A stretch of DNA of 32,000 bases from Cardiobacterium valvarum (GTDB lineage Bacteria > Pseudomonadota > Gammaproteobacteria > Cardiobacteriales > Cardiobacteriaceae): positions 1,144,738-1,176,737 of the forward strand of contig NZ_UFUW01000001.1 of NCBI RefSeq assembly GCF_900460955.1, given 5' to 3'. How positions within the stretch are numbered: the first letter of the stretch is position 1; each line of letters begins with the position of its first letter. The translations under genes and the position numbers were made by a program. Shown here piece by piece: positions 29,401-32,000 of this stretch. A model generated the notes under the pieces. It was given only the letters and a program-made list of their open reading frames with translations. It did not search any database and was not told the DNA's origin.

Positions 29401-32000
29401 GCCCGCAAGGCACCATGGACTACGACAGCAAAAACTTCGCCCTATCCGGCTCCGTCCTCTACGGCTACGGCTTCGCAGCCGACCTGAACGGCGAAAAAAC
29501 CCGCGTCTGGGCAAACGAAAAAACCATCAACAAAGAAAGCGGCGGCAGAGACGCCATTACGAGCGTCAACAGCAACAACGCCCGCATCAACGCCTGGAAA
29601 AAAGACGTCCAACAAAACGACGCCGTCGCCAATGCCCAGCAGGGCACCATCGGCGGGCAGAGCGGCTTCTTCGCGGGCGACGACGGCTTCCGCATCAAAA
29701 ACAGCGGCACCGCCACCCTCGAAGGTGCGACCTTTGTCAGCACGGCTAAAGCCGAAGCCGAAGGCAGAAACCACTTCAGCACCGACCGCCTTATCCGCAA
29801 AGACCTGGAAAACCACAGCGAATACAAAGGCAAAAGCGTGGCGCTCGGCCTGAGCGCCGTCTTTAGTGGCGACAAAAACAACGGCACCTCACAACAAATC
29901 CAGTGGCTGGGCGAAAACTTCAGCCCCATCAACGTAGGTGAAAGCGGCCTGAGCAGCCGCTTCGGCTATGACCGCACCAATAAAAACGATCGCGGCACCA
30001 CCTACGCGAGCATCAACACTGCGAACATCACCATCAACGACGCGGCGGGCCAACAAGCGCTGACGGGAGAAAGCGTGGCCGATACCATCCGTAACGCCAA
30101 CCGTGGCATGACGCTCGCGACCGCGAAAGAGCAAAGCGGCGCGGCCGATGCCCACTTTGATGCGGCGAAAGTCGAAAACAGCGTGCGCACCAACGCACAA
30201 GTGATGAAAACCTTCACCGGCACCGTACAAGAAGTCAAAGGCGACCTGCGCAAGTGGGCAGAAGAAAATCGCCGAGAATCCATATACCAACGAGACCCGG
30301 AAAAGCGGGCTGCCCAACTGCAACGCGCAGAACAACAAGAACAACTGGCCGTTGCGGTGGACATGCTCGGCGGCGCCCTCGCCCCGGCGAACAGCGCAGC
30401 CGGCAGCATAGCCAACACCCTGGCGCCGGCCATCGCCTACAAAATCGGACAAGAAGCCAAACAACGCGGACTGGAAGGCACCCCAGGACACATCGCCGCG
30501 CACACCCTGCTGGCAGGGGCGAGGACTGCGTTGAATGGCGGCAGCACCGGCGAAGTATTGGCCAGTGCCGCAATAACCGGTACCGCCGAATACAGCGCGC
30601 CGCAGCTGGCCAAACTCCTCTACGACAAAGACATCAGCCAACTGACGGCGGCGGAAAAAAGCGCGCTCGGCCAGACTATCGGTGCCCTGACGACGGGGGC
30701 AGGCGCGATGACGGGCGGCAATAGTGCCACGACCTACAACACAGGGAAAACCGCGCAGAATGCGGTGGAGAATAATGCCTTGTATGCGAATGAAGAAAAA
30801 GAACGACATGATGCAAGAGTACTACTTAAGCATAAAGCCTATAAAAACGAAGAAGAGAAAAACAAGCTAGAAAATACAATTAAAGAACTTAATATAAAGG
30901 ATGAGGTTTTTGATTATAATTTAATAAACTCTTGCCAAGAGTTATCATCAGCAGCATGTGTCGAAAACAGAAAAATTCTAACAGACATGCAAAATAGCTA
31001 TAATAACTCTATTGGAAATTCATATACTGCTCGTATGCGTGATATATATCCCATAGGAGAAAAAAATGTAAATAGGCTTATAGGGTTATATGCGGCACAA
31101 GATGAAAAAATAAATCGGGATAATATTGTTAAAACAATCGCAAATAATTGGAATATAAGCCAAGAAGCAGCAGAACTATGGTATAAAACAATAAATTTCA
31201 CCCATAATATAGGACTGGTTGCTAGTATGGGGTACATGCACCCTATTAGTACCAATATTGCCCCCTCTAAATATACAAACCGTGCGATAATTAGCAACAA
31301 ATCTTCAGCTATTGAGACGGCTAGAGGCAAAGCTCGACCTACAGAAAATAACTATGTAAACCGTGCGGCGATTAATAATGAATCTCCTGTTGGTACTAGC
31401 AGTTTTCCTCATCCCAACCCGGCGAGTACTACATGGCGTATCGAGGGAGTAGAGTGGAATAAAGCCTCTTTACCGGACAAAACTGCCGGAGCATTGGATA
31501 CAAAAACATTGCAGGTGCCGGGGATAACAGATGGTACGAATTTCTATAGCAATAGGAATGTTCAAAGCATCAAAGGTAATGTAACTAATAAATTGATACC
31601 CAAGTCTAAAGGTGTTGGTAGTGCGGAATACGGAATATATACTAGCGTAAAGTCTCTTGATGAAGTTTTCCCAGAATTAACCAATCCGGACATCAACCCT
31701 CATTACAAAGTAGGTGCACCACCTGGAACTAATATAAATTGTGTAAACTGTGTAAATACAGTTACACAACGGCTAACAGGAAAAAATCCTAGAGATATCA
31801 AAGCAATAGCAGATAATACTAAATTATATGCTAATCCAAATGGCCTATTACCTAGCATGCCGACTGGATTTAGTCCAGATGTTGTAACGCCTGCACAAGC
31901 AATAGCTGCAATGAAAGAAGCTGGTGATGGTATTACAGGCGCTATAGTTATTAAGCAACCTAGTGGAATATCTCATGCAATAAGTGTAGTCAATCGAGGC
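26319..32000 (+). CDS. cdiA: CdiA continuation in frame 3 (open from 26319 to the window end; recognisable CdiA sequence from ~26400): central domain, FHA-2/pretoxin region, VENN motif and C-terminal toxin region (3' end off-window)
   Basis: I translated every codon from 26406 to 32000 by hand and found no stop. The sequence reads GVVRNVAPGKISVGGNLTVNADSANNEGHITAG..., then ...LTAEHMKSLSEDVVLMVNKTITLPDGRQIVRQVPQVYA..., and ends at ...TGKTAQNAVENNAL followed by an AT-rich CT. It is absent from the ORF track because it has no stop within the window. Confidence 0.88.
30765..30776 (+). other. VENN motif (pretoxin / CdiA-CT boundary)
   Basis: The codons gtg gag aat aat, in frame with the long ORF, give the context NAVENNALYANEE. 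Nucleotide composition changes abruptly at this point. Confidence 0.85.

What the first reader, a model, noticed from the sequence alone, without database searches (positions are those of the whole stretch)
30765..32000. Compositionally foreign CdiA-CT of at least 408 aa with an unassigned N-terminal part and a probable papain-fold Cys/His toxin at the tip
Composition flips exactly at VENN. By hand count, 30661-30720 is 45/60 G+C and 30841-30900 is 15/60 G+C. This is the signature of a swapped toxin cassette.

The roughly 300 aa after VENN (ALYANEEKERHDARVLLKHKAYKNEEEKNK...NWNISQEAAELWYKTINFTH...) match nothing I recognise. They contain a duplicated motif, KYTNRAIISNKS (31269-31304) and NYVNRAAINNES (31350-31385).

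The last ~90 aa read GAPPGTNINCVNCVNTVTQRLTGKNP...GAIVIKQPSGISHAISVVNRG. An N-C-x-N-C Cys followed about 75 aa later by G-x-S-H-A-x-x-V-V-N is what I recall for papain-fold polymorphic-toxin domains (Tox-PL1 / Pfam PF15644 glutamine-deamidase-like). That assignment is from memory only. The CT is long compared with typical CdiA-CTs, which suggests an entry or translocation domain of unknown specificity plus a catalytic domain.
Basis: partly seen in the sequence, partly recalled or inferred. Interest (0 to 1): 0.75.

Follow-up and report, generated by a model that had tools for sequence, protein, structure and literature searches.

The report
CdiA toxin tip: entry domain plus papain-fold enzyme
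The AT-rich end of this Cardiobacterium contact-dependent-inhibition gene encodes a mosaic toxin cassette: a helical cell-entry domain, a rare conserved hinge, and an OspI-like papain-fold (Tox-PL1) enzyme, so it is a new but fairly ordinary member of a known toxin system.

Summary
G+C falls from 0.61 to 0.34 exactly at VENN (GC3 0.76 to 0.26), and an open frame of 411 codons runs off the window.

The tip (31605-32000) belongs to Pfam PF15644 (Tox-PL1/Gln_amidase):
- It has 67 homologues, and 45 of 46 tested hit PF15644.
- The NC...H signature is invariant. The DxQ part lies about 15 residues beyond the window end.
- A metagenome contig (L010) carries a tip 99% identical in protein and complete. 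It scores 34.9 bits, above the 24.1 cutoff.
- The closest solved relative is the glutamine deamidase OspI.

The "unassigned" N-terminal part (30777-31346) has no close homologue in 5.8 billion proteins. It still passes the DUF6862 threshold. DUF6862 turns out to be the N-terminal subdomain of the solved PtsG-dependent cytoplasm-entry domain of E. coli CdiA-CT EC3006, and the disulfide cysteines align.

Between them lies a 62-aa hinge (31347-31532). It occurs in only three other loci, joining three different entry domains to three different toxins (Tox-PL1, C39 peptidase, EndoU), and shows a crossover inside it.

L010 also supplies the missing 35 residues and a 108-aa immunity candidate.

The cdiA gene in the window carries a 1-nt deletion near 26397.

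Verdict: a new member of a known kind, of moderate interest.

The parts
20215..22056 (+). cdiB-type two-partner-secretion transporter
   Evidence: Pfam ShlB 316.7 bits, plus POTRA_2 and POTRA_3.
22159..26457 (+). cdiA, 5' part: ESPR signal, TPS domain and haemagglutinin repeats. It ends at a stop codon caused by a frameshift.
   Evidence: Pfam TPS 151.4 bits, ESPR and Fil_haemagg. ORF limits.
26393..26399 (+). 1-nt deletion relative to the intact Cardiobacterium homologue (TTAGAA-AAAGTG versus TTAGAAGAAAGTC). It splits cdiA into two frames.
   Evidence: blastn of window 26101-26700 against L002, where one 3130-aa frame is intact.
26319..30764 (+). cdiA, 3' part in the second frame: Fil_haemagg_2 repeats and the pretoxin region up to VENN
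   Evidence: Open frame from 26319. Fil_haemagg_2 64.8 bits.
30636..30782 (+). PT-VENN pretoxin domain. The VENN motif itself is at 30765-30776.
   Evidence: PF04829 23.8 bits, above the 20.3 cutoff, on window 30540-30830.
30777..31346 (+). N1, the cytoplasm-entry domain (CT residues 5-194).
- Predicted helices span CT 2-153, that is up to 31223.
- The DUF6862 match covers 30828-31007.
- The Cys57/Cys65 pair lies at 30933-30935 and 30957-30959.
- The tail, 31224-31346, has no predicted structure.
   Evidence: - DUF6862 scores 30.1 bits, above the 24.1 cutoff.
- phmmer hit to PDB 6vek_A (CdiA-CT EC3006, PtsG-dependent entry domain): E 0.0074 over residues 1-145, with the Cys pair aligned.
- The EC3006 fragment itself hits DUF6862 at 47.2 bits.
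- AlphaFold2 predicts eight helices.
- No close homologue was found.
- L010 has a different sequence at exactly this position.
31269..31304 (+). First copy of the 12-aa motif (KYTNRAIISNKS), at the end of N1
31347..31532 (+). Hinge module M (CT 195-256, NNYVNRAAINNES...LQVPGITD). Its first 12 residues are the second copy of the motif.
   Evidence: - 82-85% protein identity to L010, L001 and L011.
- In those loci it is flanked by three different N-terminal parts and three different tips.
- There is a crossover inside it.
- Its G+C, 0.46, differs from both flanks.
31533..31604 (+). Linker between the hinge and the toxin domain (CT 257-280)
   Evidence: pLDDT 25-33 with no predicted secondary structure. 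A similar stretch occurs in fragment P0030.
31605..32000 (+). Tox-PL1 / Gln_amidase (PF15644) papain-fold toxin domain, cut by the window end with 35 residues missing.
- Catalytic Cys326 is at 31740-31742, within a CxxC with Cys329 at 31749-31751.
- Catalytic His404 is at 31974-31976.
- The Asp and Gln of the DxQ motif lie beyond the window.
   Evidence: The L010 ORF 74-2020 supplies the C-terminus ...NRG|GEVYFIDGQLGKIVELNPNLEIRLGIKYKEFLDVKQ*.

Best explanation
[quoted passage not shown] It is built from separately exchangeable modules.

Shown:
- A PT-VENN pretoxin junction.
- A roughly 190-aa helical N-terminal domain. Its first subdomain belongs to DUF6862, the same family as the disulfide-stapled N-terminal subdomain of the solved PtsG-dependent cytoplasm-entry domain of E. 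coli CdiA-CT EC3006.
- A 62-aa conserved hinge.
- A C-terminal Tox-PL1 (PF15644) papain-fold domain carrying the Cys-His part of the family's Cys-His-Asp(xGln) signature.

Inferred from the established CDI pathway (PMC9424206 and preprint 10.64898/2026.05.07.723447):
1. CdiB exports CdiA.
2. On contact with a target cell, the CT enters the target periplasm and is cut off after VENN.
3. The entry domain uses an inner-membrane protein of the target to cross into the cytosol.
4. In the cytosol the Tox-PL1 enzyme covalently modifies an essential protein. The most likely reaction is deamidation of a glutamine, as in OspI, its only characterised relative. Peptide-bond cleavage is the main alternative.
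5. Producer cells are protected by a small immunity protein of about 95-108 aa, encoded immediately downstream. This gene lies beyond the window but is seen in L010, L004, L005 and L006.

The hinge is most likely a flexible inter-domain linker. Its conserved sequence also serves as a homology patch, letting entry domains and toxins be shuffled independently.
For: Locus context: cdiB and cdiA domains; PT-VENN at 23.8 bits, above its cutoff.

Cassette swap:
- G+C 0.61 before VENN versus 0.34 after it.
- L002 and L003 are 94% identical in protein before VENN.
- L010 is 92.6% identical in DNA before VENN.
- All three differ after VENN.

Entry domain:
- DUF6862 at 30.1 bits, above the 24.1 cutoff.
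- PDB hit 6vek_A, E 0.0074, collinear over 145 residues, with Cys57/Cys65 aligned to the Cys55-Cys65 disulfide (PMC9424206).
- The EC3006 entry domain itself hits DUF6862 at 47.2 bits.
- The model is all-helical, as described for entry domains.

Toxin:
- 67 homologues at E<=1e-3.
- Invariant N-C and H, and a nearly invariant D.Q.
- 45 of 46 homologues hit PF15644.
- The complete L010 copy scores 34.9 bits.
- A profile of the family hits OspI 3b21 at E 7e-4, with Cys62/His145/Asp160 aligned to the signature.
- A model of homologue P0069 (pLDDT 88.9) has OspI as its top Foldseek match (probability 1.00), followed only by other papain-fold enzymes.

Immunity:
- ORFs directly after the toxin in L010, L004, L005 and L006 are mutually homologous.
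- Their divergence tracks that of the toxin: tips 72% and 47% identical go with downstream ORFs 52-54% and 31% identical.
- The L010 ORF has an AAGGAG Shine-Dalgarno sequence 7 nt upstream of its ATG.

Cytosolic action: the same hinge precedes a C39 peptidase in L001 (Peptidase_C39 24.4 bits). Characterised C39 CDI/T6SS toxins of this kind (Cpe1, StbD-CT) cleave GyrB/ParE (PMC12136450). In L011 the hinge precedes an EndoU nuclease with a CdiI_4 immunity gene. Both are enzymes that act in the cytoplasm.

Hinge and recombination: the window and L010 differ at 17 codons within CT 197-226 but at only 7 in CT 227-411. L010's first half instead matches L001 and L011.
Against: - The tip inside the window scores below Pfam's cutoff (17.1-21.2 bits against 24.1), because the last 35 residues, including the catalytic Asp, are missing.
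- No biochemical activity or bacterial target is known for any antibacterial Tox-PL1 in the literature searched. Deamidase versus protease is therefore an inference.
- Similarity of N1 to the PtsG-type entry domain is weak beyond the DUF6862 part: 22% identity and pairwise BLASTP E 0.11. The membrane receptor is unknown.
- The Foldseek match to OspI is moderate (TM 0.49, E 2.6e-3).
- The hinge has no predicted structure (pLDDT about 30 with a two-sequence alignment). Its role rests on four loci.
- cdiA in this window carries a 1-nt deletion. If that deletion is real, the CT is not made as part of a full-length effector in this strain.
- The immunity gene itself is outside the window.
Confidence: 0.75

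Rival explanations
1. The Tox-PL1 domain is a true cysteine peptidase. It kills by cleaving an essential cytosolic protein, and perhaps also cuts its own linker, rather than deamidating a glutamine.
For: - Zhang et al. 2012 predicted a peptidase and noted possible releasing-peptidase roles.
- The only characterised papain-fold CDI/T6SS toxins, Cpe1 and StbD-CT, are peptidases that cleave GyrB/ParE. StbD-CT also auto-cleaves its linker.
- The same hinge precedes such a C39 domain in L001.
- Foldseek also recovers the C. rodentium CdiA-CT (8ssm), AvrPphB and PLpro.
Against: - The nearest relative by both sequence and fold is the deamidase OspI.
- The C39 family is a different Pfam family with no detectable sequence similarity to this tip.
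- The linker contains no Gly-Gly site of the C39 kind.
Confidence: 0.3
2. The locus is a dead remnant. The frameshift in cdiA means this CT is no longer deployed and is decaying.
For: - There is a 1-nt deletion at about 26397 relative to the intact 3130-aa homologue in L002.
- Decay is seen in CDI cassettes elsewhere, though those are orphan cassettes rather than the main cdiA gene. L001 has a nonsense codon where L010 reads Trp. L004 and L005 toxins lack the catalytic Cys.
Against: - The 1894-codon frame downstream of the shift, including 411 AT-rich codons, has no stop codon.
- The module plus tip is 95.9% identical in DNA to the intact L010 gene, and from CT 227 onward nearly all changes are synonymous.
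- The deletion lies in an A-run, a typical site for sequencing error.
Confidence: 0.3
3. The toxin is directed at host (eukaryotic) cells, as OspI is, and not at bacteria.
For: - OspI, the closest characterised relative, deamidates human UBC13.
- Cardiobacterium lives on humans (general knowledge).
Against: - Delivery is by CdiA with a VENN junction and a bacterial inner-membrane entry-domain family.
- A co-varying small ORF follows the toxin in every complete relative, as expected of an immunity gene.
- Relatives sit in orphan arrays among CdiI genes.
Confidence: 0.07
4. The 62-aa hinge is a functional domain in its own right, for example a receptor- or chaperone-binding element needed for import, and not merely a linker and homology patch.
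For: Its protein sequence is kept at 82-85% identity across four loci, although everything on either side is swapped. It always sits directly before the toxin.
Against: - No predicted structure.
- A composition rich in Pro, Gly, Ser, Thr and Asn.
- In its first half, non-synonymous changes are as common as synonymous ones.
- It is absent from most CdiA-CTs, including L002 and L003 of the same genus.
Confidence: 0.25

Closest known systems
OspI of Shigella flexneri (PDB 3B21/4IP3), the characterised member of Pfam PF15644 Gln_amidase / Tox-PL1
   Same: - Papain fold.
- The catalytic Cys (within an N-C-x-x-C motif), the His, and the Asp-x-Gln 15 residues after the His all align.
- It is the best Foldseek match of the family model.
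   Different: - OspI is a stand-alone type III effector acting on human UBC13 and has no immunity gene.
- Here the domain is the tip of a CdiA, has an extra conserved N-terminal extension (GSA..IY.S.RP....FPEL.G.NPHY), is only about 16% identical, is followed by an immunity-like ORF, and presumably acts on a bacterial protein.
CdiA-CT EC3006 of E. coli 3006 (PDB 6VEK): a PtsG-dependent cytoplasm-entry domain plus a tRNase
   Same: - VENN junction.
- Helical entry domain whose N-terminal subdomain is DUF6862, with a conserved Cys pair.
- Two-domain architecture of entry domain plus toxin (PMC9424206).
   Different: - Only about 22% identical.
- The second subdomain is barely alignable.
- The receptor is unknown here.
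- The cargo is a papain-fold enzyme, not a BECR tRNase.
- An extra tail of about 40 aa, the 62-aa hinge and a 24-aa linker separate entry domain and toxin.
StbD-CT (Citrobacter rodentium) and Cpe1 (E. coli): CDI/T6SS C39 papain-like peptidase toxins
   Same: - A cysteine enzyme of the papain superfamily delivered by CdiA.
- A helical, disulfide-containing entry domain joined to the enzyme by a flexible linker.
- A Cys close to the catalytic Cys.
- The relative L001 carries such a C39 domain behind the same hinge.
   Different: - A different Pfam family: Peptidase_C39 versus Gln_amidase.
- A different entry domain (YajC-dependent).
- Their GyrB/ParE target and Gly-Gly specificity cannot be transferred to this toxin.
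Tox-PL1 polymorphic toxins as catalogued by Zhang et al. 2012 (PMC3482391)
   Same: The NC-H-DxQ signature and the C-terminal position in a polymorphic toxin.
   Different: - That survey lists T2SS, T3SS, T6SS, T7SS and MuF delivery with Imm35 immunity.
- Here delivery is by T5SS/CdiA, as also in homologues P0027 and P0041.
- The candidate immunity protein matches no Pfam family.

Membership tests
CdiA / two-partner-secretion CDI effector | TPS secretion domain, filamentous-haemagglutinin repeats and an adjacent CdiB (ShlB/FhaC) transporter | tested here: met
   TPS 151.4 bits; Fil_haemagg and Fil_haemagg_2; ShlB 316.7 bits.
CdiA / two-partner-secretion CDI effector | Pretoxin VENN domain marking the start of a variable CT | tested here: met
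   PF04829 scores 23.8 bits, above the 20.3 cutoff. VENN is at 30765-30776. Relatives diverge exactly there.
CdiA / two-partner-secretion CDI effector | One intact reading frame | tested here: not met
   A 1-nt deletion at about 26397 relative to L002 splits the gene. These data cannot tell a real mutation from a sequencing error.
CdiA / two-partner-secretion CDI effector | Cognate cdiI immunity gene immediately downstream | not testable with these tools
   The window ends inside the toxin domain. The near-identical L010 has a 108-aa ORF overlapping the stop codon.
Pfam PF15644 Gln_amidase / Tox-PL1 | Score above the curated gathering threshold (24.1 bits) | tested here: inconclusive
   The window fragment scores 17.1 bits in the whole CT and 21.2 bits alone, against profile positions 1-100 of 114. 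The complete L010 copy, 99% identical in protein, scores 34.9 bits. 45 of 46 homologues match.
Pfam PF15644 Gln_amidase / Tox-PL1 | NC ... H ... DxQ catalytic signature | tested here: met
   N325-C326 and H404 are present and invariant in alignments A1 and A2. DxQ lies beyond the window but is present in L010 (FIDGQ).
Pfam PF15644 Gln_amidase / Tox-PL1 | Papain-like alpha+beta fold, with the Cys at a helix N-terminus and the His on a beta-strand | tested here: met
   In the window model, Cys326 starts helix 326-338 and His404 lies in strand 403-409. The model of homologue P0069 (pLDDT 88.9) matches OspI and other papain-fold enzymes.
Pfam PF15644 Gln_amidase / Tox-PL1 | Glutamine deamidase (or peptidase) activity | not testable with these tools
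   Needs biochemistry. Only OspI is characterised.
DUF6862 / PtsG-type CdiA-CT cytoplasm-entry domain | Score above the DUF6862 gathering threshold, with the domain placed directly after VENN | tested here: met
   30.1 bits against a 24.1 cutoff, CT residues 22-81. The solved EC3006 entry domain scores 47.2 bits on the same model.
DUF6862 / PtsG-type CdiA-CT cytoplasm-entry domain | All-helical two-subdomain architecture with a conserved Cys pair | tested here: met
   Eight predicted helices over CT 2-153, at low to moderate confidence. Cys57/Cys65 align with Cys55/Cys65 of 6VEK.
DUF6862 / PtsG-type CdiA-CT cytoplasm-entry domain | Dependence on PtsG (or another defined inner-membrane protein) for import | not testable with these tools
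   Requires selection of resistant target mutants.
Imm35 (the immunity family reported for Tox-PL1) | Downstream gene matches Imm35 | tested here: not met
   The candidate immunity ORFs of L010, L004 and L006 match no Pfam family at E<=0.1 to 1. They form their own family.

The most novel reading that the evidence does not exclude
The 62-aa hinge (NNYVN...LQVPGITD) is a second, internal exchange junction inside CdiA-CTs, analogous to VENN. It lets Cardiobacterium-type effectors recombine entry domains and toxins independently. It may itself be needed for import or for release of the toxin. Behind it sits the first tractable CDI-delivered OspI-like enzyme, whose bacterial target would define a new mode of interbacterial killing: deamidation of an essential bacterial protein.
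Probability: 0.25. Interest if true: 0.7.

Novelty: new member of a known kind. Interest (0 to 1): 0.42.

Why it matters
CDI toxins characterised so far are mostly nucleases and pore-formers. Papain-fold CDI toxins were only characterised in 2025-2026, and those belong to the C39 family.

In the literature searched, no Tox-PL1 (OspI-like) toxin aimed at bacteria has a known target or chemistry. This locus, together with the complete copy and immunity candidate in L010, gives a defined toxin/immunity pair to test.

The four-locus comparison is also a clean natural example of entry domains and toxins being shuffled independently through a short conserved hinge.

DUF6862 can now be read as the N-terminal subdomain of a solved cytoplasm-entry domain, which gives a function to a "domain of unknown function".

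Tried and rejected
- Word-indexed protein searches with the whole CT and with CT 1-284 returned only P0001. They missed the 67 tip homologues that full HMMER found.
- A genome-contig scan with the module plus tip found nothing, so the source genome is not among the GTDB representatives.
- NCBIfam gave no match for the CT. Pfam gave none for CT 82-280.
- The AlphaFold2 model of the whole window CT is poor (mean pLDDT 51.8). Its Foldseek search gave only chance matches and did not recover 6VEK. Fold-level support for the entry domain is therefore lacking.
- P0064, a 777-aa repeat protein that looks eukaryotic, matched CT 158-256 weakly (E 2.9e-4, summed over repeats). I judged it spurious.
- The PDB hit to PfhB2 (6u8t), E 0.058, was not significant and was not pursued.
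- Pairwise BLASTP among the N-terminal parts of the window, L010, L011, L002 and L003 showed no significant similarity. They are different entry-domain types.
- A single-cassette origin for the whole AT-rich segment was rejected. L010 shares the hinge plus tip but not N1, and the three pieces differ in G+C.
- Literature searches for DUF6862/PF21726 found nothing. Searches for an antibacterial OspI-like deamidase also found nothing.
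Full report
**Observation**

VENN is encoded at 30765-30776, in a frame that stays open from 26319 to the end of the window.

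- G+C is 0.606 in the 1.2 kb before VENN. After it, G+C is 0.339 (30777-31346), 0.462 (31347-31532) and 0.378 (31533-32000).
- Third-position G+C falls from 0.756 to 0.256.
- The two 12-aa motifs are at the stated coordinates. They form the best self-pair in the CT, and only 1% of shuffles reach their score.

**Context**

The window is from a Cardiobacterium. The 304 residues before VENN are 94% identical to CdiA of Cardiobacterium sp. Marseille-Q4385 (L002) and of a Cardiobacterium MAG (L003).

- Upstream lie cdiB (20215-22056) and the start of cdiA (22159) with ESPR, TPS and haemagglutinin repeats.
- The pretoxin PT-VENN domain passes its Pfam threshold.
- L002 and L003 diverge completely from the window straight after VENN, and their CTs are also AT-rich. 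The CT is therefore a swapped cassette.
- cdiA in the window is split into two frames by a 1-nt deletion at about 26397, in an A-run, relative to the intact 3130-aa gene of L002. These data cannot tell a real mutation from a sequencing error.

**The tip (31605-32000)**

- Against Pfam, the fragment matches PF15644 Gln_amidase ("papain fold toxin 1") at 17.1-21.2 bits, below the 24.1-bit cutoff. The match covers profile positions 1-100 of 114 because the window ends inside the domain.
- A full HMMER scan of 1.84 billion representative proteins found 67 homologues (43 at E<=1e-10). All match CT residues about 281-411, and each continues about 28 residues past the point where the window stops.
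- In the alignments, N-C (CT 325-326) and H (CT 404) are invariant. A D.Q follows 15 residues after the His. This is the NC-H-DxQ signature that defines Tox-PL1 (PMC3482391).
- 45 of 46 homologues hit PF15644, with a best E-value of 7.7e-12.
- A profile of the family finds OspI (3b21) in the PDB at E 7e-4. OspI's Cys62/His145/Asp160 align to the signature. OspI is the UBC13 glutamine deamidase.
- An AlphaFold2 model of a complete homologue, P0069, is confident (pLDDT 88.9). Its best Foldseek matches are OspI (probability 1.00, TM 0.49), then the C. rodentium CdiA-CT C39 peptidase, AvrPphB, coronavirus PLpro and Cpe1. All are papain-fold enzymes.
- In the window's own model, Cys326 opens a helix and His404 sits on a strand.

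**The missing end**

A metagenome scan returned L010 (ODZI01010665.1). Its ORF 74-2020 is the end of a Cardiobacterium-like CdiA.

- It is 92.6% identical in DNA to the window before VENN.
- It is unrelated to the window for the next 195 codons.
- It is then 95.9% identical from window position 31343 to 32000.
- It supplies the missing C-terminus...NRG|GEVYFIDGQLGKIVELNPNLEIRLGIKYKEFLDVKQ*.
- As a complete domain it scores 34.9 bits on PF15644.

**Immunity**

In L010, a 108-aa ORF overlaps the toxin's stop codon and is preceded by AAGGAG.

- It is homologous to the ORFs that follow the closest orphan toxins in L004 and L005, and to the one following a more distant orphan in L006.
- Its divergence tracks that of the toxin. 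Tips 72% and 47% identical are followed by ORFs 52-54% and 31% identical.
- It matches no Pfam family, and in particular not Imm35.

This is the expected behaviour of a cognate immunity family, and it argues for a bacterial target.

**The N-terminal part, N1 (30777-31346)**

No close homologue exists in 5.8 billion clustered proteins or in 1.84 billion representatives.

- CT 22-81 nonetheless passes the DUF6862 threshold: 30.1 bits against 24.1.
- A PDB search aligns CT 1-145 collinearly with residues 2-145 of 6vek_A at E 0.0074, with the two cysteines aligned.
- 6VEK is CdiA-CT EC3006. Its N-terminal PtsG-dependent cytoplasm-entry domain has nine helices in two subdomains and a Cys55-Cys65 disulfide (PMC9424206).
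- That entry domain itself scores 47.2 bits on DUF6862. DUF6862 is therefore the N-terminal subdomain of this type of entry domain.
- The window model predicts eight helices over CT 2-153.

I read N1 as a divergent entry domain of this class. The receptor is unknown, and similarity in the second subdomain is weak (22% identity).

**The hinge, M (31347-31532)**

The only protein hit to the first 284 residues, P0001, shares just CT 195-254 and then carries a Peptidase_C39 domain. That is the domain type of Cpe1 and StbD, which cleave GyrB/ParE (PMC12136450 and the 2026 preprint).

Together with L010 and L011, four loci carry the same 62-aa sequence at 82-85% identity:

| Locus | Junction | N-terminal part | Tip |
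|---|---|---|---|
| window | VENN | N1 | Tox-PL1 |
| L010 | VENN | N2 | Tox-PL1 |
| L001 | VGNN | N2 | C39 peptidase |
| L011 | VDNN | N3 | EndoU, with a CdiI_4 immunity gene |

- The window and L010 differ at 17 codons in CT 197-226 but at only 7 in CT 227-411. L010's first half matches L001 and L011 instead. A crossover therefore occurred inside the hinge.
- The hinge's G+C (0.46-0.48) differs from both flanks.
- It has no predicted structure.
The first copy lies at the end of N1, which may be a scar of an earlier join.

**Mechanism**

The modules and their family memberships are shown by the evidence above. The delivery route is inferred from the established CDI pathway:

1. Export by CdiB.
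2. Transfer of the CT to the target periplasm.
3. Cleavage after VENN.
4. Import across the inner membrane, mediated by the entry domain.

The hinge precedes two enzyme types that act in the cytoplasm, which supports cytosolic action of the Tox-PL1 domain. Its chemistry is open. I favour glutamine deamidation because OspI is the nearest relative by both sequence and fold, with peptide cleavage as the main rival. The catalytic Cys lies in a conserved C-x-x-C, also present in OspI. This could allow redox control of the kind discussed for StbD-CT, but that is speculation.

**Novelty**

- CdiA proteins with Tox-PL1 tips already exist in the databases: P0027 and P0041, the latter also with DUF6862.
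- The two-domain CT architecture and independent domain exchange are established.
- This is therefore a new member of a known kind.
- What is new: an orphan-sequence entry domain, a rare hinge that documents the exchange, and an uncharacterised immunity family.
- A 2022 review of CDI effectors mentions no papain-fold or deamidase toxins. No characterised antibacterial Tox-PL1 was found.

Noticed in passing
window 26393-26399: cdiA is split into two frames (22159-26457, and 26319 onward) by a 1-nt deletion in an A-run, relative to the intact 3130-aa homologue in L002. It is either a pseudogene or a homopolymer sequencing error.
   Followed up: partly
window 14829-19410: tRNA-Ser (14829-14918), a phage-type integrase (15062-16291) and a DUF927 protein (18217-19410) lie just upstream of cdiB. 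There are low-G+C stretches around 16400-17600. The CDI locus may sit on an integrative island inserted at tRNA-Ser.
   Followed up: partly
L001 1-1434: An orphan-like CT (VGNN + N2 + hinge + C39 peptidase) is interrupted by a stop codon where L010 reads Trp (FMPTN* versus FMPTNWSMM). A PT-HINT + Endonuclea_NS_2 toxin gene follows on the same contig.
   Followed up: partly
L004 482-859; L005 158-418: The closest relatives of the tip (72-74% identical) are N-terminally truncated orphan fragments that lack the catalytic Cys. Each is still followed by an intact 94-aa immunity-like ORF, so immunity is retained after toxin loss.
   Followed up: partly
L010 2533-2787: Downstream of the immunity candidate lies a second, truncated Tox-PL1 fragment. 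It is about 50% identical to the tip and has no catalytic Cys, which suggests an orphan array.
   Followed up: no
window 31740-31751 (and alignment A2): The catalytic Cys lies in a C-x-x-C motif that is conserved in most family members and in OspI (GNCSGC). This could be a redox switch. It was not tested.
   Followed up: no
L003 8114 onward: The CT of the Cardiobacterium MAG ends with a motif resembling a nucleic-acid deaminase (SGACAEV ... CENC). It was not scanned specifically, and Pfam gave no significant match to the whole CT.
   Followed up: no
window 1967-3850: A 627-aa ORF in a very G+C-rich stretch (0.64-0.70) has no Pfam match. A 585-aa ORF overlaps it on the opposite strand. It is unclear which of the two, if either, is a gene.
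   Followed up: no
(tools): The word-indexed protein search missed nearly all tip homologues that the full HMMER scan found. Conversely, the HMMER representative library did not return P0001 despite a match at E 1.9e-28. The rarity of the hinge and of N1 should be read with that in mind.
   Followed up: no
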